Source: a virus (lineage: Duplodnaviria; Heunggongvirae; Uroviricota; Caudoviricetes). Taken from it: 16,102 nt of DNA. Where the stretch lies: positions 1-16,102 of the IMG/VR virus record IMGVR_UViG_2778261646_000017. One strand, 5' to 3'. Numbering within the stretch: the stretch's first letter is position 1; each line of letters opens with the position of its first letter. Positions 9,241 to 16,102 of this stretch are shown piece by piece. A program made the translations under genes and the position numbers. The notes beneath the pieces are model-generated. The model saw nothing but the letters and a program-made list of their open reading frames with translations, was not told the origin of the DNA and searched no databases.

Positions 9241-9513
9241 TTATCTGTCCTGGTAATTTCGCCATATTTCATCACCAGCACCATCCATACCCATTTCGGC
9301 ATAAGTGCGATCGACCGCCTTTTTCAGGTCTCCGTAATTATCCGGCGGCTCCGGTGGCCTCTGTGCCTTCCTGGAACATTCCAGCCGTCGCATCGTGATG
9401 TGATGCCGTTCCTTGTCTGTCTCCACCAGTTGCATGACTTCACCCCATCGCGCCGACGCTCTCCGGTAAAAGCCTTTCGCCTCCAGTTCTTCCGCTATGC
9501 GGTCATGTACCAT
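9241..9513 (-). CDS. PerC-like small transcriptional activator (putative), 90 aa
   Basis: MVHDRIAEELEAKGFYRRASARWGEVM... resembles my recollection of the PerC-family N-terminal signature (LE..G.WRRAA.RW); strong GAGGGGGG SD; family assignment not verified. Confidence 0.55.
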   Translation of the reverse strand: MVHDRIAEELEAKGFYRRASARWGEVMQLVETDKERHHITMRRLECSRKAQRPPEPPDNYGDLKKAVDRTYAEMGMDGAGDEIWRNYQDR

Positions 9514-10475: not shown

Positions 10476-12224
10476 TTATAAAAACGCGTCGCAATCGTCT
10501 GTTGTTATTGCGTTAGTCTGCGTTACTCCCTTAACTTTCCGCGTAATATATTCATGTCCGTAAACTTTCGCGGCTGGCTTCATAGCCTTGCCAAAGTCAT
10601 TTACGTTTAGCGGTTTGCTCCTGCCTGCGTATGCCATAAACGCCAGATAGACGCGGTAAAGGCTGTTTCTGGTCGTGTACTTCACTGAATCGCCACCGCC
10701 ACCCATCATCAGGCCGCGCGCTTCCTCCAGAAAATTCAGGAACTGGCAAAACTCAATAACCGGATCCGTCTGTTGCTTTATTGCCAGTGCTTCATCACCG
10801 TCACGCTGTTCCAGTAGTAAAGCCCGTGCCTTCTCAGGGTCGGTAAAGTTCGCCAGCAAGCGGCGGATAATGACAGGGATTTCAGCCGCGATCTTTTCCG
10901 GTAGCTCCCTGTCTTTTTCTGCCTCGCTTACGATATTGTCGAAGCGGAAAATAACCCGACGACGTGACACGCCTCCGGCCCGTTCGGTGAATATCATCGG
11001 GTTGTTATTGGTCGCCAGCACCACCGCCCTGATTACCGTAGTGAAACGCTTTTCATATTTCGGGTTGATTTCCACGGGGTCGCCGCCCGTGATTTTCTTG
11101 ATGCCCGTGCCTTCGCCTGTATATTTCGGCTGGTCTGCCAGGACGATAAGACGACTCCCGACAACCTGCGCACGCCCACCAGCATCATCAAGCGATGTCA
11201 TTTCCGCGCTTACCGTGTTTTGTTTCCCCGCTAAAAGGCTGGCGATGTGGGTGAATGTACTTTTGCCGCTCCCGCCGTCTCCGGTGGCCTCAATAAACAT
11301 CTGCCAGTCGTACCGGTTCGCCATAATCATGTACAGCGCGGCACATATACGCATCATCTTGCGCTGGTCTTTTCCGGCTGCGTGATCAAGCCATTTATGA
11401 AAGTTTGGCGCGTTATCGCGGATGTTCTCCCCAGGTGCTGGTGGCGTGTACTCAATGCCGTTGTGCGTGGTGATCCAGTTCTCCGGCGTGTGCGGGGAAA
11501 ATTCCCCCGTTTTCAGGTCAAGCGCACCATTGGCGAACGGCAACAAATCGCCGGACGGCTCGCCCATTGGTTCGGCAATAACTTTTAACGCTTCCACGGC
11601 GTTATTGATTACGCGCTTGCTGAAAGTGGCCCTGTGCTCTGAATAGATCGCCACCATTTCGCGGCTAAGTTCCATTGTGCTGACCGGACACCATACCCCG
11701 CCGCGCCATACGTGAACGATTTCACTTTCCGGATGCACACAAACGCCATCAAATCGACCAGCAAGCATCTGTGCGCGCTCACTGTCTGCCATTTGTGCCA
11801 GTTGCGTATTTTTCTGCTCCGGCATGGTAAGCCCTGCGGCAATATTTTCACGCTCAGCATTCAGATAGCGCCGCCAGTTTTCACACTTCTGGACGTGCAT
11901 TCCTTCGGGGTAAAAATTTGCGTCCTGAATATCTGCCGCCGCCAGCTTCTGACCAATCTTTTTGGTCTCCACCAAATCCAGTTCTCCGGCCTGGTACAGC
12001 CTTACGCGCTTTTTCCCATCCGGAACAATTTTCAGCGCATCAAGTTCGGCAAGCTGATTTGGCCCAAGCCACACAGGCGGCACATTATCGCCGGATGCGG
12101 GGCCGTCCTGCTCCTGCCACTGTTTTGCATGTGACCACGCATCACTACCCGCGAAAATAATTACCTCTGTGTCTTTGTGTTTTATTCCGCGTGGCTGTTT
12201 TTTTACGTTCGGTGCCAGTTTCAT
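10476..12224 (-). CDS. Replication protein: primase / SF3-type helicase (P4 alpha-like, PICI Pri-Rep-like), 582 aa
   Basis: Walker A GDGGSGKST, Walker B-like RLIVLAD, N-terminal primase-like region; ATGA-coupled to the upstream small gene; iterons directly downstream. Confidence 0.88.
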   Translation of the reverse strand: MKLAPNVKKQPRGIKHKDTEVIIFAGSDAWSHAKQWQEQDGPASGDNVPPVWLGPNQLAELDALKIVPDGKKRVRLYQAGELDLVETKKIGQKLAAADIQDANFYPEGMHVQKCENWRRYLNAERENIAAGLTMPEQKNTQLAQMADSERAQMLAGRFDGVCVHPESEIVHVWRGGVWCPVSTMELSREMVAIYSEHRATFSKRVINNAVEALKVIAEPMGEPSGDLLPFANGALDLKTGEFSPHTPENWITTHNGIEYTPPAPGENIRDNAPNFHKWLDHAAGKDQRKMMRICAALYMIMANRYDWQMFIEATGDGGSGKSTFTHIASLLAGKQNTVSAEMTSLDDAGGRAQVVGSRLIVLADQPKYTGEGTGIKKITGGDPVEINPKYEKRFTTVIRAVVLATNNNPMIFTERAGGVSRRRVIFRFDNIVSEAEKDRELPEKIAAEIPVIIRRLLANFTDPEKARALLLEQRDGDEALAIKQQTDPVIEFCQFLNFLEEARGLMMGGGGDSVKYTTRNSLYRVYLAFMAYAGRSKPLNVNDFGKAMKPAAKVYGHEYITRKVKGVTQTNAITTDDCDAFL

Positions 12225-12525: not shown

Positions 12526-12753
12526 TTATTCTCCGGTGTGCTGCGCTTTATTATTCTCGTGAATTGCCATCACTGTATTTAATTCATTAATAACAGGCGT
12601 TAATAGCGTACGCACGGCAGAAAACATCATTGAATCAGATTCATCGCCACTTTCCGGCACATCAATTAACTTAAGTAGTAATGCGTCCATTTCCTTTGCG
12701 CGGATTAATGCGTTTTCAGAATGAACAAGAACATCAAAGGGTATTTTATGCAT
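12526..12753 (-). CDS. Hypothetical protein, 75 aa (start at the internal ATG with AGGGGGGAG SD)
   Basis: MHKIPFDVLVHSENALIRAKEMDALLLKLIDVPESGDESD...; the longer start offered by the ORF track (12855) has no SD and overlaps the upstream gene. Confidence 0.5.
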   Translation of the reverse strand: MHKIPFDVLVHSENALIRAKEMDALLLKLIDVPESGDESDSMMFSAVRTLLTPVINELNTVMAIHENNKAQHTGE

Positions 12754-12916
12754 GACTCCCCCCCTGGCGAATACGGGCGACAAAAATAAGATGTGCGTGC
12801 GGCAGCTGTGCACGTGCTTCGCGCTCAGTGGCAGCGGTAACGGTGAATATTGCAATACTGTCTGTCAGGCACTGCATAAAGCGCCAGACAAAATAAGGGC
12901 GTGCGAATACAGCCAT
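12746..12916 (-). CDS. Small protein, 56 aa, paralog of the gene at 13203-13406 (possibly the Icd-like cell-division-inhibitor family; unverified)
   Basis: MAVFARPYFVWRFMQCLTDSIAIFTVTAATEREARAQLPHAHLIFVARIRQGGSHA aligns with the C-terminal 50 aa of the upstream paralog (WRF...EARxQ.P......F.ARIRQG.SHA). The reading frame stays open upstream to 13210, so the N-terminus is uncertain. Confidence 0.5.
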   Translation of the reverse strand: MAVFARPYFVWRFMQCLTDSIAIFTVTAATEREARAQLPHAHLIFVARIRQGGSHA

Positions 12917-13202
12917 GTGAAAGGCTCCCAGATGAATTTTAAGGAGTCTCGCTACTACGCTGCTAAACATGGTGGCGAGACGTAACAGGGTTAGCAGACT
13001 GGTCATCTGGAAACCAGCGAGCACAAAGGCTCCCCCGTTACGCCCCGCCATAATGCGGGTATGGGTAGGTTTACGGACACAAAAAAACCGCTTATCGGAT
13101 GTGGGCGGCTGTCCGCCAGATGTATTCAGGCTGCTAAACCCGGTCGCCATGTGGGCGACGGGGGAAGCATACAGCCCCGTGATAATTTTTTGCAAGCGGT
13201 TT

Positions 13203-13406
13203 TTACGCATGATGTGACCCCTGACGAATACGGGCGGCGAATACCATCACGCAGCCAGCCGGGGATTGCTGGCGTGCCTCCTGTTCGCTGGTGGCCTCAA
13301 TGGTAATCACGCGCGGTTGTGCCGTGCTCAGGGCGATAAAACGCCAGATGTATTTATTCAGGTTGTGCGAGTCCCGCCCTTGCGGGTGTGTGGTATGATT
13401 TCTCAT
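13203..13406 (-). CDS. Small protein, 67 aa, paralog of the gene at 12746-12916 (possibly Icd-like; unverified)
   Basis: MRNHTTHPQGRDSHNLNKYIWRFIALSTAQPRVITIEATSEQEARQQSPAGCVMVFAARIRQGSHHA; GAGG SD 6 nt upstream of ATG at 13406; it is the C-terminal part of a 352-aa track ORF whose remainder I reject. Confidence 0.55.
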   Translation of the reverse strand: MRNHTTHPQGRDSHNLNKYIWRFIALSTAQPRVITIEATSEQEARQQSPAGCVMVFAARIRQGSHHA

Positions 13407-13501
13407 AGCTACCTCGATACTTTCGCTATCGTTGGTGGTTAGAGGCTGCGAAAGGACGGCAATCCTTTTCAGCCTCGTTTGCATTGAGTGATAGTTACTC
13501 A

Positions 13502-13582
13502 ACTGGATTCCAGTATAATCATCAAGTGGAATCCACTTCAAGCATTTTGTTTTGGTCTTTTTCGTGTATACTGGATTCCAGT
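13502..13582. promoter_or_regulatory. Three palindromic operators with core TGGAWTCCA, plus -10-like hexamers, in the divergent control region
   Basis: ACTGGA-T-TCCAGT at 13502-13514, AAGTGGA-A-TCCACTT at 13524-13538, ACTGGA-T-TCCAGT at 13570-13582; TATAAT at 13514-13519. Confidence 0.6.
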
Positions 13583-13602
13583 AATCACAAAGGAAACCGG
13601 AA

Positions 13603-13782
13603 ATGGAAAGAGACCATATCAATAACAAATCACAAAAATTACAGGCTCGCGCCCCGCATGAAGTTGTTGAGGCAATGGAGCAAGTCAAAGAAACAGGCGA
13701 GAGCACTGCGCAATTTATCGTTACAGCCATGCGCGGCGAGATCAAACGCCGCCAGCGTCGCAAAGCCAAAGAATCAGAATAA
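13603..13782 (+). CDS. Small ribbon-helix-helix-like DNA-binding protein (putative regulator), 59 aa; not in the ORF track because it is under 60 aa
   Basis: MERDHINNKSQKLQARAPHEVVEAMEQVKETGESTAQFIVTAMRGEIKRRQRRKAKESE; AGGAAA SD 8 nt upstream; predicted strand-helix-helix pattern; operators directly upstream. Confidence 0.5.
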   Translation: MERDHINNKSQKLQARAPHEVVEAMEQVKETGESTAQFIVTAMRGEIKRRQRRKAKESE

Positions 13783-13839
13783 TCACTATCAGCGCCGTGG
13801 CGTGAGGTACTCCGGCGCATTGCTTTACAGGTCAGTACT

Positions 13840-14049
13840 ATGAGCAAAAAACACCGATCAGCAGATGAGATTTTTGCAGAACAACGAAGATTGCTTTTGC
13901 AAAGTATCATTTCACGCCAGCAAGAGAAGGCGCGAGCTAAACAAATGCCACCAAATACAGAACCAGCGCCTACAAGATTTGCGCTTGATGACTTTCTCGA
14001 TAAACACCCCAGGGTAATGAAAGCAAACAAAAACCGCCCACCAGGCTGA
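13840..14049 (+). CDS. Hypothetical protein, 69 aa
   Basis: MSKKHRSADEIFAEQRRLLLQSIISRQQEKARAKQ...; weak AGGT SD; followed by a + strand terminator. No family recognised. Confidence 0.4.
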   Translation: MSKKHRSADEIFAEQRRLLLQSIISRQQEKARAKQMPPNTEPAPTRFALDDFLDKHPRVMKANKNRPPG

Positions 14050-14140
14050 TCACATTGCCCACCAGCCTGATAGCGGCTATCATCCCCGTGCTTATGTTTG
14101 AGATCACACACACAAACGGCGCAGCGGGTTATCTGTTCAG

Positions 14141-14173
14141 AAAGGCGGCTCCATTTCAGGGCCGCTTTTTTTA
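14141..14173 (+). terminator. Rho-independent terminator for the two small + strand genes
   Basis: AAAGGCGGC-(11-nt loop)-GCCGC followed by TTTTTTT on the + strand. Confidence 0.55.
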
Positions 14174-14318
14174 TTCCTGAAAAACCCCAATTTTGTTGTT
14201 TTTCAGTTTCACCAGGGCGAACGAATCCCCGCCCACGTTCTGGCGTATATTCAATCTTCATGGTTATAGCTCTGTGTTCAGATGATTGATGTGTGGCGGC
14301 TGCGTGCCGCCAGCGTGA

Positions 14319-14507
14319 TTAATGAACTGCCTTGCAGCTATCCTTCCAGGCCAGAACCTCGGATAAAGACCAGCCAACGGAACGACCGCCAAGTTTACGA
14401 CGTGATGGGAATTGTCCGGCCTTTTCCAGGCGGTAGCGACACGTACGGCTAAGGCCGGTTAGTTTTTCGCATTCTTTTTCACGTATAAACCGATCAGTGC
14501 TTAACAC
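14319..14507 (-). CDS. alpA: AlpA-family transcriptional regulator / excisionase-like HTH protein (62 aa from GTG; track ORF extends to a TTG at 14588)
   Basis: DRFIREKECEKLTGLSRTCRYRLEKAGQFPSRRKLGGRSVGWSLSEVLAWK matches the AlpA HTH signature (TGLSRST.YR....G.FP...KLG.R.V.W); GTG at 14507 has a strong AAAGGGGGG SD 5 nt upstream. Confidence 0.8.
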   Translation of the reverse strand: MLSTDRFIREKECEKLTGLSRTCRYRLEKAGQFPSRRKLGGRSVGWSLSEVLAWKDSCKAVH

Positions 14508-14872: not shown

Positions 14873-16102
14873 TTATTTTCTTCTGGCTGCTGGTAGTGCG
14901 GTTACGTTTTCATGTGTTCCCGCCAGTATCCCTAACCGCTCCATCCACATATCCAGCGCATTGCGTTTAGCATCCAGATAACGGGAATGATTATAAACTC
15001 GCTGCATTCCTGGCATCTGGTGGCCTGTAAGCTGCTCCACGACGTGAGGATCCACGCCTAAATCGCTCAGCATCGTTGTAAAGGTGCGCCGGATGTCATG
15101 TAGTGACCAGTGAGGGTGATTTAGCCTCCTGTGCGCTAATCTGCCGTACTGCGACACGCTTGTTTCCTGTTTCACTTCCCCCAGCAATAAGCCCGTGTGC
15201 CTGTTCTGCTCCACCAGCTGCGTGACGAACGGCAGTATTGCTTCCGGTATGGGCCGGAATATTGCCACCTTCGTTTTGCTGTGTTCTTTCGGCACGGTCC
15301 AGAGCATTTCGGTAAAATCCCACTCGCTGATCTCCGATAACCTCAGTTCTACCGTCCGGCATCCGAACACAATCAGGAGGCGGATTAACGCGATGTAGTA
15401 GGGGGAGAATATTTTTTTGTCCAGTGCCTGCAATAATTCGCCCAGTTCTTTGGTGCTTAAGACACGCTCGCTTATATCCAGTTTTTTCCCAACGTCCGCC
15501 ACACTCATATCATCAAGAACGTTGCTGATTGCATAGCGCCGCCTCCGGCAGAACTTAAGCGCCTGTTTGCACGTCTGTAGCAAGAATCCGGCAGTAACAG
15601 GCGTTCGCTTTGCCACCTGGTCAAAACAGGCCAGCCAGTGCCGTAGCTCGCATTTATCCAGCGGCATAGCACCAATGTGCTGTATTACGTGATTATTAAG
15701 GCGCTTTTTCAGGGCGGCATAATCCACGCGGTTTTCCTTTGCGTACGACTCAAGCCAGTAGGTGAGCGCATCGCCAACCGTTACCGGCTTTAACGCTTCC
15801 TGTACGGTGTAATTAAGCTCATGACGTGGATTTTTCCCCTCTGCCAGCCATGCGCGACACTGGGCGGCTTTTTCCCTGGCTGATTTCAGGCTCAGATCAG
15901 GATAATTTCCCAGCTTAATGCGTTCCGGTGGTGCCCCCCTTCCCGTTCCGGCCCTGTAAGTGAAATACCAGGTTAAAAGGCCACTGGTTGAATGCCTGAC
16001 GCTCAGGTTTCCACCGTCATTAAGAAAGGCTGTTTTTTGGGCGGGTGTGCCGTTGATTTTCCTCAGCTGTGTATCGCTCAGTTTGTTAAGTGCTCTGCTC
16101 AT
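14873..16102 (-). CDS. int: Tyrosine recombinase / integrase, P4-type (409 aa; start codon at the window edge, could extend further)
   Basis: N-terminal arm-binding-like domain (LSDTQLRKI...GLLTWYFTYRAG), catalytic region with HDIRRTF...LGHQ-like...RVYNHSRY (R-H-R-Y residues). Confidence 0.92.
   Translation of the reverse strand: MSRALNKLSDTQLRKINGTPAQKTAFLNDGGNLSVRHSTSGLLTWYFTYRAGTGRGAPPERIKLGNYPDLSLKSAREKAAQCRAWLAEGKNPRHELNYTVQEALKPVTVGDALTYWLESYAKENRVDYAALKKRLNNHVIQHIGAMPLDKCELRHWLACFDQVAKRTPVTAGFLLQTCKQALKFCRRRRYAISNVLDDMSVADVGKKLDISERVLSTKELGELLQALDKKIFSPYYIALIRLLIVFGCRTVELRLSEISEWDFTEMLWTVPKEHSKTKVAIFRPIPEAILPFVTQLVEQNRHTGLLLGEVKQETSVSQYGRLAHRRLNHPHWSLHDIRRTFTTMLSDLGVDPHVVEQLTGHQMPGMQRVYNHSRYLDAKRNALDMWMERLGILAGTHENVTALPAARRK

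What the first reader, a model, noticed from the sequence alone, without database searches (positions are those of the whole stretch)
13480..13782. Three-operator palindromic switch plus an unannotated 59-aa RHH-like gene
The divergent region between the - strand early operon and the + strand small genes holds three near-identical dyad sites with core TGGAWTCCA (13502-13514, 13524-13538, 13570-13582), two of them the perfect 13-mer ACTGGATTCCAGT, with a TATAAT hexamer overlapping the first. Immediately downstream on the + strand is a 59-aa ORF with a good SD and a strand-helix-helix pattern (KLQARAP / HEVVEAMEQVKETG / STAQFIVTAMRGEIKRR). It is absent from the ORF track only because it is under 60 aa. 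A triple operator next to a tiny RHH protein looks like an autoregulated repressor switch, which would be a candidate master repressor keeping the satellite silent. No repressor is generally assigned for AlpA-type Gram-negative PICIs as far as I recall.
Basis: partly seen in the sequence, partly recalled or inferred. Interest (0 to 1): 0.65.

Follow-up and report, generated by a model that had tools for sequence, protein, structure and literature searches.

The report
Swappable repressor-operator switch of phage satellites
A 59-residue DNA-binding protein and three matching 11-bp sites on two back-to-back promoters form a conserved, exchangeable specificity ("immunity") cassette in Gram-negative phage satellites, including the laboratory prototype EcCICFT073, which makes it the best candidate so far for the repressor these elements were thought to lack.

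Summary
TGGAWTCCA occurs exactly three times in the 16-kb window, all within 13504-13580 (0.11 expected). The 59-aa ORF is real: dN/dS is 0.03-0.13, and RefSeq already annotates it as a YlcI/YnfO family protein of unknown function.

The window is a capsid-forming PICI of E. coli CE10.

In 49 related satellites from about 20 enterobacterial genera the layout is fixed. An 11-mer [C/G]TG-N5-CA[C/G] sits on the -10/+1 of the rightward ylcI promoter. Two more sit on the leftward promoter that drives the icd/kil-like gene and the primase operon.

The N5 core is shared by the three sites of one element and differs between elements, giving at least 17 types. It tracks residues 12 and 14 of the protein, which align with Arc's base-contacting Gln9 and Asn11. 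It does not track AlpA, integrase, primase or the Icd-like neighbour.

The cassette lies antisense inside a P4 eta-like ORF downstream of alpA, and a C4/CI-type RNA lies 0.5 kb further on.

Binding and repression are inferred, not shown. I found no description of this in the searchable literature.

The parts
13502..13514 (.). Operator O1 (ACTGGATTCCAGT; 11-mer core CTGGATTCCAG). It overlaps the -10 and the predicted start site of the leftward promoter PL.
   Evidence: A third site of matching core is present in 50 of 50 elements with canonical geometry, 42 of them with 0 mismatches in 9.
13524..13538 (.). Operator O2 (AAGTGGAATCCACTT; core GTGGAATCCAC). It overlaps the spacer and the -35 of PL.
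   Evidence: GTG...CAC.TCAA is at least 80% conserved at -77..-62 from the ylcI ATG.
13569..13583 (.). Operator O3 (TACTGGATTCCAGTA; core CTGGATTCCAG). It starts at base 5 of the PR -10 hexamer and covers the predicted start site of ylcI.
13512..13541 (-). PL, the leftward promoter: -35 TTGAAG (13541-13536), 18-nt spacer, -10 TATACT (13517-13512). It is the positional analogue of P4 PLE.
   Evidence: Consensus scan. The TCAA anchor sits at -65 in 49 loci. There is no transcript data.
13567..13572 (+). PR -10 hexamer TATACT for ylcI. No recognisable -35; the upstream stretch is T-rich.
   Evidence: GTATACTG is at least 80% conserved at -37..-30 in 46 distinct upstream sequences and is at -36 in 49 loci. 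It was not picked up by the two-hexamer scan.
13603..13782 (+). ylcI: a 59-aa YlcI/YnfO-family protein and putative RHH repressor. Strand about residues 11-17, helix 19-28, G-E-S turn, helix 35-58. K12, Q14 and R16 are the inferred base contacts.
13415..13476 (-). Structured leader of the PL transcript: hairpin 1 (13476-13442), conserved UCUAACCA (about 13443-13436), hairpin 2 (13431-13415) next to the Shine-Dalgarno sequence of the icd-like gene. Function unknown.
   Evidence: Alignment of 32 loci: 91% of cells paired, 13 of 16 pairs with compensatory changes, covariation 0.306 against 0.087 shuffled (0 of 500) and 0.02-0.11 for slid controls.
13203..13406 (-). The 67-aa Icd-like (P4 Kil-like) gene, first gene of the PL operon, nested in frame at the 3' end of the long ORF.
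   Evidence: NF033153, 69.8 bits. RefSeq annotation. Family link to P4 Kil.
13203..14261 (-). The 352-codon eta-like open frame. It starts 57 nt below alpA and runs antisense through hyp69, ylcI and the operators into the icd-like gene.
   Evidence: The same register is open in 42 of 50 loci. It is a shadow frame within ylcI. The P4 eta/kil precedent is summarised in PMC10111431.
13840..14049 (+). hyp69: a second small ORF downstream of ylcI, possibly co-transcribed from PR. Function unknown and not universal.
   Evidence: No Pfam or PHROG hit. A 57-aa counterpart exists in EcCICFT073. Absent from H6437.
14319..14507 (-). alpA (Phage_AlpA, E=5.4e-17). It lies upstream of PL and is co-oriented with it.
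12968..13055 (-). C4/CI-type antisense (immunity) RNA, downstream of the first icd-like gene.
   Evidence: Rfam RF01695, 72.7 bits against a gathering score of 45, E=7.6e-13, full-length match.
12746..12916 (-). Probable true second icd/kil-like gene (56 aa, ATG 12916, GGGAG upstream). RefSeq extends it to 13210, across the C4 RNA.
   Evidence: The Icd-like domain is confined to residues 107-149 of the 154-aa ORF. Sequence read. PHROG hits.

Best explanation
The interval is the specificity (immunity) switch of a capsid-forming PICI.

Shown by sequence and comparison:
- ylcI encodes a conserved 59-aa protein under purifying selection.
- It is transcribed away from the replication operon.
- Three 11-bp sites of the form [C/G]TG-N5-CA[C/G] sit at fixed positions on two back-to-back promoters. 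O1 is on the -10/+1 of PL, O2 is on the -35/spacer of PL, and O3 is on the -10/+1 of PR.
- The N5 core is the same at the three sites of one element and differs between elements.
- The core co-varies with residues 12 and 14 of the protein.
- The protein plus its sites move between otherwise unrelated satellites as one cassette.

Inferred:
- The protein is a ribbon-helix-helix dimer. Its two-stranded sheet reads each 11-mer: invariant R16 contacts the invariant outer TG/CA, and variable K12 and Q14 read the inner core.
- Occupancy of O1 and O2 shuts PL, the analogue of P4's internal promoter PLE. PL drives the icd/kil-like gene, the C4 RNA, the primase and probably everything downstream.
- Occupancy of O3 limits ylcI's own synthesis.

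More speculative:
- Induction works as in P4. Helper-triggered, AlpA-dependent transcription from upstream of alpA reads and translates through the eta-like ORF, that is antisense across ylcI and over the operators.
- This both bypasses PL repression and opposes PR, flipping the switch.
For: Gene reality:
- There are 108 homologues of 57-64 aa in Enterobacterales.
- dN/dS is 0.03-0.13.
- The ylcI frame has fewer replacements than the overlapping antisense frame in 85% of 1,638 pairs. Mean BLOSUM62 of replacements is +0.07 against -0.99.

Synteny:
- int(-) alpA(-) ylcI(+) | icd-like(-) ... primase(-) recurs across 60 loci.

Geometry:
- The PR -10 is at -36 and the PL -35 is at -65 from the ATG in 49 loci plus the window.
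- All 50 have a third matching site.
- The consensus is shown.

Concerted change:
- The S2-S3 core distance is 0.13 within a locus and 0.51 between loci.

Specific covariation:
- Operator distance against the beta-segment gives r=0.72. The partial r is 0.55 (p<=0.0003) given the rest of the protein and the Icd-like neighbour.
- Against the Icd-like protein r=0.10 and the partial r is -0.07 (p=0.94).
- By position, residue 14 (r=0.61) and residue 12 (r=0.59) rank first, R16 is invariant, and the hypervariable residues 23, 27, 30 and 31 give r<=0.16.
- hhalign aligns K12/Q14/R16/P18 with Arc Q9/N11/R13/P15, P=0.0013.

Natural swaps:
- Window against EcCICFT073: AlpA 94%, Int 96%, Icd 93%, primase 90% identical, but YlcI 68% and different operators (GTGTGGCCCAC).
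- Window against the helper-embedded PICI of O157:H7 H6437: AlpA 19%, Int 23%, primase 48%, but YlcI 98% and identical operators.
- The sharp breakpoint is at about 13430.
- EcCICFT073's SQALKARVP strand with GTGTGGCCCAC reproduces the pairing seen in three other genera.

Fold:
- AF2 pLDDT is 84.6, with helices 19-28 and 35-58.

Context:
- PMC6092414 states that a global repressor in Gram-negative PICIs is unclear.
- The P4 eta/kil/PLE design is summarised in PMC10111431.
Against: - There is no binding, expression or transcript-start data of any kind.
- The RHH assignment is weak. The monomer model shows helical turns rather than a strand at residues 8-16. Foldseek against the PDB finds nothing. 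hmmsearch against PDB sequences finds nothing meaningful. The only Pfam RHH-clan hit is below threshold (PSK_trans_fac, E=0.024; 7 of 36 members).
- The gene and its sites are 20-100 bp apart, so some covariation is simple co-inheritance. The permutation tests do not model the tree.
- PR has no recognisable -35.
- AlpA over-expression alone induces EcCICFT073, which carries its own ylcI cassette. Repression, if real, can therefore be bypassed, and 'master' may overstate it.
- This element also has a C4/CI-type RNA, which is the sole immunity factor in P4.
Confidence: 0.68

Rival explanations
1. YlcI binds the sites but is not the silencer of the element. It would be a local autoregulator or fine-tuner, for example limiting the toxic Kil/Icd-like protein or setting the level of the leader/C4 RNA. 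Quiescence would then depend, as in P4, on RNA-mediated termination and on the absence of AlpA.
For: - A C4/CI-type RNA is present.
- P4 achieves immunity with CI RNA and no protein repressor (PMC10111431). P4 has no ylcI.
- AlpA alone induces EcCICFT073.
- The PL leader is a conserved structured RNA.
Against: - C4 is absent from 18 of 18 other ylcI loci scanned, so most elements would lack the RNA immunity.
- Two of the three sites lie on PL itself.
- The cassette shows diversification into at least 17 types and sharp recombination boundaries, as expected of an immunity determinant.
Confidence: 0.2
2. The dyads are binding sites for AlpA, the known activator of Gram-negative PICIs.
For: - AlpA is a DNA-binding regulator required for induction and activates downstream PICI genes.
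- The sites lie between alpA and the operon it switches on.
Against: - The window and EcCICFT073 have 94% identical AlpA but unrelated operator cores.
- The window and H6437 have 19% identical AlpA-like proteins but identical operators.
Confidence: 0.03
3. The adjacent Icd/Kil-like protein is the operator-binding repressor. PHROGs labels its family 'transcriptional repressor'.
For: - phrog_6196 and phrog_1743 carry the label 'transcriptional repressor'.
- The gene is always next to the sites.
Against: - There is no covariation: r=0.10, partial r=-0.07, p=0.94.
- 100 pairs have the same operators but very different Icd-like proteins, and 17 pairs have near-identical Icd-like proteins but different operators.
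- The PHROG label most likely descends from P4's historical 'cI' ORF, still annotated 'transcriptional repressor', whose real product is the CI RNA.
Confidence: 0.03
4. A host or helper-phage factor binds the sites, and ylcI is unrelated to them.
For: Helper phages do control induction of these elements.
Against: - At least 17 different cores occur among elements of the same host species, each repeated three times per element.
- The covariation with YlcI is position-specific.
- There is no ylcI homologue in 50,697 phage records.
Confidence: 0.03

Closest known systems
P22 immI repressors Arc and Mnt (ribbon-helix-helix)
   Same: - A repressor of about 50-80 aa with strand-helix-helix order.
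- The strand motif aligns: YlcI K12/Q14/R16/P18 with Arc Q9/N11/R13/P15.
- Operators lie on divergent promoters, with autoregulation expected. The P22 biology is from my own knowledge.
   Different: - No family-level sequence membership. The hhalign probability is 18% and nothing passes a Pfam threshold.
- Three separate 11-bp sites rather than one 21-bp tetramer operator.
- A long basic C-terminal helix (EIKRRQRR, invariant).
- Host element is a satellite, not a phage.
Satellite phage P4 immunity/early region (PLL-vis-eta/kil, internal promoter PLE, CI RNA)
   Same: - An alpA/vis homologue followed by a long ORF with an internal promoter and a nested kil/icd-like gene in the same frame.
- A C4/CI-family RNA.
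- A downstream primase operon.
   Different: - P4 has no ylcI homologue and no protein repressor of PLE.
- Here a protein gene, its promoter and three operators are embedded antisense inside the eta-like ORF.
- The CI-type RNA is optional.
Stl/Rpr master repressors of SaPIs and other Gram-positive PICIs
   Same: - Encoded by the element and element-specific.
- Divergently transcribed from the excision/replication operon.
- Located between the int side and the replication side (PMC6092414).
   Different: - Stl/Rpr genes lie on the same strand as int, whereas ylcI points towards alpA and int.
- No shared family was detected.
- YlcI is much smaller (59 aa).
- Derepression by helper proteins is shown for Stl. 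Nothing is known here.
E. coli K-12 YlcI (DLP12) and YnfO (Qin), DUF3950
   Same: - Same NCBIfam family, NF041551.
- Same R-x-P / helix / G-S-G / helix pattern, read directly.
- Function unknown in the searchable literature.
   Different: - The K-12 gene lies beside cos/nohD of a lambdoid prophage.
- It is not next to alpA or icd-like genes.
- It has no TG-N5-CA triplet upstream.
Lambdoid immunity regions (imm-lambda, imm434, imm21), and omega repressor of pSM19035
   Same: - The repressor and its operators are exchanged as one cassette between otherwise near-identical genomes.
- Like omega, the short repeated sites work in either orientation.
- Both comparisons rest on my own knowledge of those systems.
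   Different: - Different folds (HTH repressors in lambdoids).
- Different site numbers and lengths.
- No SOS-cleavable domain.

Membership tests
YlcI/YnfO family (NCBIfam NF041551) | Score above the curated cut-off of the family model | tested here: met
   72.3 bits against a cut-off of 30, E=2.4e-20, residues 9-50 on model positions 1-42. RefSeq gives it the same name.
Ribbon-helix-helix (MetJ/Arc) superfamily | N-terminal strand of alternating polar and hydrophobic residues, followed by Pro and helix 1, a G-x-S/T turn and helix 2 | tested here: met
   The sequence KLQARAP-HEVVEAMEQVKE-TGES-TAQFIVTAM is read directly. AF2 gives helices 19-28 and 35-58. hhalign to Arc covers the strand plus helix 1, P=0.0013.
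Ribbon-helix-helix (MetJ/Arc) superfamily | Significant match to a curated RHH family or to a solved RHH sequence | tested here: not met
   The best Pfam hit is PSK_trans_fac, 16 bits against a cut-off of 28.3, matched by only 7 of 36 members at E<=1. No RHH protein appears in the hmmsearch against PDB sequences.
Ribbon-helix-helix (MetJ/Arc) superfamily | Fold similarity to solved RHH structures | tested here: inconclusive
Ribbon-helix-helix (MetJ/Arc) superfamily | Homodimer with an antiparallel two-stranded sheet inserted in the major groove | not testable with these tools
   No multimer or DNA-complex prediction is available. Indirect support: the residues that track operator specificity are those aligned with Arc's sheet contacts.
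PICI master repressor (Stl/Rpr type) | Divergent from the replication operon, and on the int side and strand | tested here: not met
   The gene is divergent from the icd-primase operon, which fits. However, it is on the opposite strand to int and alpA.
PICI master repressor (Stl/Rpr type) | Represses the element's early operon and is relieved by a helper-phage protein | not testable with these tools
   This requires genetics or biochemistry.
P4-type early/immunity region | C4/CI-family RNA in the early leftward operon | tested here: met
   RF01695, 72.7 bits, at 12968-13055(-). Not general: 0 of 18 other loci have it.
P4-type early/immunity region | A long ORF after the alpA/vis gene with a nested in-frame kil-like gene and an internal promoter | tested here: met
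   ORF 14261-13203 ends in the 67-aa icd-like gene. PL is inside it. The frame is open in 42 of 50 loci, and in phase with icd in 33. The promoter is predicted only.
Capsid-forming PICI (the element as a whole) | [quoted passage not shown] | tested here: met
   The RefSeq features of the identical CE10 locus between phoQ and roxA show this set. The definition is taken from the cf-PICI preprint.

The most novel reading that the evidence does not exclude
The YlcI cassette is the missing primary repressor and immunity determinant of Gram-negative PICIs, cf-PICIs and helper-embedded PICIs. It has at least 17 orthogonal specificities that decide which satellites can coexist or be co-induced. Because it is written antisense inside the eta-like ORF, AlpA-driven read-through transcription and translation physically erases repression by sweeping the operators and colliding with PR. 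On this reading the helper needs only to switch on alpA.
Probability: 0.35. Interest if true: 0.82.

Novelty: new variant of a known kind. Interest (0 to 1): 0.7.

Why it matters
**The open question.** Since 2018 the accepted picture has been that Gram-negative PICIs have an activator (AlpA) and that a global repressor is 'unclear' (PMC6092414). Satellite-finding schemes list only AlpA, MerR or Stl as the regulation module (PMC10085698).

**What this adds.** A conserved repressor-like cassette is present in the experimental prototype EcCICFT073. That would explain how the toxic kil/icd-like gene and the replication genes stay off. It gives a concrete target for asking how helpers induce these elements. 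It also predicts immunity groups among satellites: this type is in 99 of 5,426 complete E. coli genomes, never twice in one genome.

**Practical use.** The family offers many natural pairs of a 59-aa repressor and an 11-bp operator, with an apparent two-residue specificity code. This could be useful for engineered PICI 'drones' and for synthetic circuits.

**Annotation.** It also gives a first functional hypothesis for DUF3950/YlcI/YnfO, a y-gene family of E. coli K-12.

Tried and rejected
- **Foldseek of the AF2 model against the PDB:** no hit with E<=0.001.
- **Profile search against PDB sequences:** only a spurious ribosomal S20 match at E=0.03.
- **Pfam:** nothing above threshold for ylcI, hyp69 or the long ORF pieces.
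- **tblastn of YlcI against 50,697 phage records:** no match. The idea that helper phages carry a close paralogue that could poison the dimer has no support.
- **C4 RNA as a general partner of ylcI:** rejected, absent from 18 other loci.
- **PL leader as a known RNA:** the only hit is a sub-threshold R1162 antisense-RNA match (24.7 bits against 55, E=0.13), treated as not established.
- **RNAduplex scan of C4 against the PL and PR transcripts:** dominated by self and GC-rich pairings, so uninformative.
- **The long antisense ORF as the real gene and ylcI as its shadow:** rejected by replacement counts and conservativeness.
- **Locating EcCICFT073:** two fetches of CFT073 regions hit a lambdoid prophage and core genes before the element was found at roxA/phoQ.
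- **Forti et al. 1999 (PMC94026):** not held. The P4 eta/kil facts are cited through PMC10111431.
- **Literature searches for a function of YlcI/YnfO/DUF3950, or for an RHH repressor in PICIs:** nothing found. The library lacks most subscription journals, so absence there is not proof.
Full report
**1. What the window is**

A megablast of 13100-14300 finds identical DNA in E. coli O7:K1 CE10 and three other strains. The annotated CE10 locus shows a 14-kb island between phoQ and roxA. On the - strand of the window it carries, in order:
- integrase (14873-16102)
- an AlpA-type HTH gene (14319-14507; Pfam Phage_AlpA, E=5e-17)
- two Icd-like genes
- DUF4222
- primase (10476-12224)
- SSB
- a PerC-family gene
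- major capsid, prohead protease, portal, head closure and connector proteins
- HNH endonuclease
- small and large terminase

There are no tail or lysis genes. This is the gene set of a capsid-forming PICI as defined in the cf-PICI preprint.

**2. Checking the observation**

- TGGAWTCCA occurs three times in 16 kb, all within 77 bp. The expected count is 0.11, and 0 of 200 shuffles reach three.
- The outer two sites belong to a 16-nt inverted pair that includes TATA.
- The 59-aa ORF is present, with an AAGGA Shine-Dalgarno sequence 8 nt from the ATG.

The ORF is not unannotated in public records. RefSeq calls it a 'YlcI/YnfO family protein', and NCBIfam NF041551 scores 72 bits against a cut-off of 30. 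PHROGs places it in phrog_949, function unknown. No paper in the searchable library gives YlcI, YnfO or DUF3950 a function.

**3. The gene is real**

The 5.8-billion-protein search returned 108 homologues, nearly all 57-64 aa. They come from Escherichia, Salmonella, Klebsiella, Serratia, Yersinia, Xenorhabdus, Pantoea, Pectobacterium, Edwardsiella and others. Fifteen columns are invariant. dN/dS against homologues is 0.03-0.13, although synonymous sites are saturated.

One complication needed handling. The opposite strand is also open across the gene, in the register that shares wobble positions, so dN/dS alone cannot tell the two frames apart. The ylcI frame has fewer amino-acid changes in 85% of 1,638 pairs. 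Its replacements are also conservative (mean BLOSUM62 +0.07 against -0.99). ylcI is therefore the frame selected for its protein.

**4. Comparative anatomy of the switch**

A degenerate-pattern scan of one genome per species returned 60 loci.
- Synteny is constant: int(-), alpA(-), ylcI(+), then a divergent small icd-like gene and a primase operon.
- In 49 of 58 resolvable loci plus the window, a TATACT-like hexamer lies at -36 from the ylcI ATG and TCAA lies at -65. TCAA is the leftward TTGA of a -35.
- The position-wise consensus reads aaGTGaa...CAC.TCAAg, then a T-rich spacer, then gcGTATACTGaa...CAC, then ggaG, then ATG.

In the window, the consensus scan finds a leftward promoter: TTGAAG (13541-13536), 18 nt, TATACT (13517-13512). 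The sites then sit as follows:
- O2 covers the -35 and spacer of PL.
- O1 covers the -10 and start region of PL.
- O3 starts at base 5 of the rightward -10 and covers the ylcI start region.

PR has no recognisable -35. It rests on conservation only.

**5. The sites are element-specific and travel with the protein**

The general site is an 11-mer, [C/G]TG-N5-CA[C/G]. The outer bases are conserved. The inner bases are the same at the three sites of one locus and differ between loci: the mean 7-nt distance is 0.13 within a locus and 0.51 between loci. At least 17 core types are visible. All 50 canonical elements have the third site, 42 with 0 mismatches in 9. It lies about 22 or about 34 bp from O2, in either orientation. 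Perfect palindromy is a property of the window's type only, and many cores are asymmetric.

Operator distance correlates with distance in the segment S10-P18:

| Comparison with operator distance | r | Partial r | p |
|---|---|---|---|
| Beta-segment S10-P18 | 0.72 | 0.55 (given the rest of the protein and the Icd-like neighbour) | <=0.0003 |
| Icd-like protein | 0.10 | -0.07 | 0.94 |

There are 100 pairs with the same operators but very different Icd-like proteins. There are 17 pairs with near-identical Icd-like proteins but different operators.

Position by position, the two residues that best predict the core are 14 (r=0.61) and 12 (r=0.59). R16 is invariant. The most variable residues (23, 27, 30, 31; 9-12 states each) give r<=0.16. 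The signal is therefore not a general by-product of linkage.

**6. Three natural swap experiments**

EcCICFT073, the prototype E. coli PICI, sits at the same roxA/phoQ site and has the same layout, including an annotated YlcI/YnfO gene.

| Comparison | AlpA | Int | Icd-like | Primase | YlcI | Operators |
|---|---|---|---|---|---|---|
| Window vs EcCICFT073 | 94% | 96% | 93% | 90% | 68% | Different: GTGTGGCCCAC twice plus CTGTCCCCCAC |
| Window vs helper-embedded PICI in a terminase gene of O157:H7 H6437 | 19% | 23% | 90% | 48% | 98% | Identical, all three |

- In the window-CFT073 comparison, DNA identity falls from 97-100% to 40-60% at about 13430. It recovers only in the 3' half of ylcI.
- The EcCICFT073 strand SQALKARVP with GTGTGGCCCAC is the same pairing seen in Pseudocitrobacter, Enterobacter and Dryocola loci.
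- These comparisons exclude AlpA, integrase and primase as the specific partner of the sites. They show a cassette bounded on the left by the PL leader and on the right within ylcI.

**7. Fold**

- The AF2 monomer model (pLDDT 84.6) has helices 19-28 and 35-58, but no strand at the N-terminus.
- Foldseek finds nothing in the PDB.
This places K12, Q14, R16 and P18 on Arc Q9, N11, R13 and P15.
- In the Arc-operator structure, Q9, N11 and R13 make the base contacts. That is my knowledge and was not checked here.

The agreement between this alignment and the independent covariation ranking is the strongest argument for an RHH-type sheet reading the N5 core. Membership of the superfamily remains unproven by curated models.

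**8. The wider regulatory setting**

Three further features change how the switch should be read.

(a) C4/CI RNA. A full-length C4/CI-family antisense RNA lies at 12968-13055(-) (72.7 bits). It sits inside the RefSeq 154-aa 'Icd-like' CDS, whose Icd-like domain is confined to the last 48 residues. The real second gene probably starts at ATG 12916. C4 is absent from 18 other ylcI loci. C4 and isrK hits in some Gram-negative PICIs were already reported (PMC10111431).

(b) Structured PL leader. The PL leader carries two hairpins and an invariant UCUAACCA, with strong compensatory variation. Its function is unknown.

(c) Long open frame. The - strand is open for 352 codons, from 57 nt below alpA, through hyp69, ylcI and the operators, into the 67-aa icd-like gene.
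- The same register is open in 42 of 50 loci, and in phase with the icd-like ATG in 33. The other two frames close after a median of 1 and 10 codons.
- This matches P4 as summarised in PMC10111431. In P4, eta is a long ORF coupled to the alpA homologue vis. A constitutive promoter (PLE) lies inside it. kil is nested in the same frame. Translation of full-length eta from the late promoter prevents termination.
- P4's own frame map shows this arrangement. P4 Kil is recognisably related to the icd-like proteins of several loci.
- P4 has no ylcI.
- P4's old 'cI' ORF is still annotated 'transcriptional repressor'. This probably explains the PHROG label on the Icd-like family.

**9. Mechanism proposed**

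Shown:
- a conserved protein gene;
- three matching sites at fixed positions on two predicted promoters;
- concerted, protein-linked specificity;
- cassette exchange between elements.

Inferred:
- YlcI dimers bind the 11-mers through a two-stranded sheet.
- O1 and O2 repress PL, and hence the kil/icd-like gene, the primase and downstream genes.
- O3 gives negative autoregulation.

Speculative:
- Induction is P4-like.
- The helper activates alpA, as shown for EcCICFT073.
- AlpA-dependent transcription then reads and translates through the eta-like ORF.
- This crosses ylcI antisense and passes over the operators, so it bypasses PL and suppresses PR.
- It would reconcile a repressor with the finding that AlpA over-expression alone induces EcCICFT073.

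**10. Novelty and verdict**

RHH repressors on divergent promoters are classical. New here, relative to everything I could search, are:
- the family (DUF3950/YlcI/YnfO, no known function);
- its role in Gram-negative satellites;
- its many specificity types with an apparent two-residue code;
- its antisense embedding in an eta-like ORF.

PMC6092414 says a global repressor in these elements is 'unclear'. Later surveys list only AlpA, MerR or Stl homologues, or Bro-zone proteins and immunity RNAs. No binding or expression data exist, and the library lacks most subscription journals. I rate the finding as a new variant of a known kind with interest 0.7. Confidence is 0.68 in the operator-repressor reading overall. 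It is higher, about 0.8, for 'YlcI is the factor that recognises these sites'. It is lower, about 0.35, for 'it is the master repressor flipped by AlpA read-through'.

Noticed in passing
window 12968-13055 (-), within RefSeq CDS 12746-13210 (-): A full-length C4/CI-type antisense RNA (RF01695, 72.7 bits) lies inside the annotated 154-aa 'Icd-like' CDS. The Icd-like domain is only in the last ~48 residues, so the true gene probably starts at ATG 12916 (56 aa). RefSeq lists no ncRNA feature here. GUUUAGCAG, nearly complementary to the C4 segment CUGCUAAC, flanks the RNA on both sides (about 13139-13131 and 12968-12960, read by eye).
   Followed up: partly
window 13203-14261 (-): A 352-codon open frame runs antisense through hyp69, ylcI and the operators, in phase with the 67-aa icd-like gene. 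The same register is open in 42 of 50 related loci. It is best explained as the analogue of P4 eta with nested kil and an internal promoter. Whether it is translated is unknown.
   Followed up: partly
window 13415-13476 (-): The PL leader is a conserved structured RNA: two hairpins and an invariant UCUAACCA, with 13 of 16 pairs showing compensatory changes. It sits on the icd side of the cassette breakpoint (about 13430 cuts between the hairpins). There is a sub-threshold resemblance to the R1162 antisense RNA (E=0.13). Function unknown.
   Followed up: partly
window 13590-13600 (+) and 13019-13009 (-): The ylcI Shine-Dalgarno region AAGGAAACCGG is complementary to the C4 loop CUGGUUUCC (7 Watson-Crick pairs plus G-U and G-C), read by eye. 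C4 might therefore also damp ylcI translation. The duplex scan run was uninformative.
   Followed up: no
window 13840-14049 (+); L064 18243-18416 (-): hyp69 follows ylcI on the same strand. It has a 57-aa counterpart in EcCICFT073 sharing an RFA..FAL..FL motif. It has no Pfam or PHROG family and is absent from the H6437 element. A GC hairpin (GCGCCG...CGGCGC, about 13791-13818) lies between ylcI and hyp69.
   Followed up: partly
window 14039-14261 (-): RefSeq marks this stretch as an 'Icd-like' pseudogene missing its C-terminus. It is the N-terminal part of the long eta-like frame, so it is probably an annotation artefact of the nested-gene arrangement.
   Followed up: partly
L065 (E. coli O157:H7 H6437, NZ_CP038339.1 1885690-1895577): The same ylcI/operator cassette (98% protein identity, identical sites) sits in a satellite inserted in a prophage large-terminase gene (helper-embedded PICI). 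That element has an unrelated integrase and AlpA-like gene, and a BRO-N gene next to ylcI.
   Followed up: partly
E. coli complete genomes: This cassette type occurs in 99 of 5,426 genomes and never more than once per genome, as expected of an immunity type. At 1.8% prevalence, however, doubles would be rare anyway.
   Followed up: no
window 9241-9513 (-): A PerC-family regulator gene lies in the satellite, and one is also present in EcCICFT073. A PerC-like gene of EcCIMP1 was reported to repress LEE1 (PMC11773190).
   Followed up: no
L006, L011, L019, L023, L029, L033, L061 (between int and alpA): The Rfam int-alpA RNA motif (RF02996) is present in 7 of 18 related loci, but does not reach threshold in the window.
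   Followed up: no
L066 6252-6446 (E. coli K-12 ylcI): K-12 YlcI has the same strand-helix-helix pattern (RNIRFP...GSGNFSAWVIEACRRRL). It lies next to the DLP12 cos/nohD region and has a different upstream palindrome (ATGATAATAATTATCAT). It is a distant paralogue in another context.
   Followed up: partly
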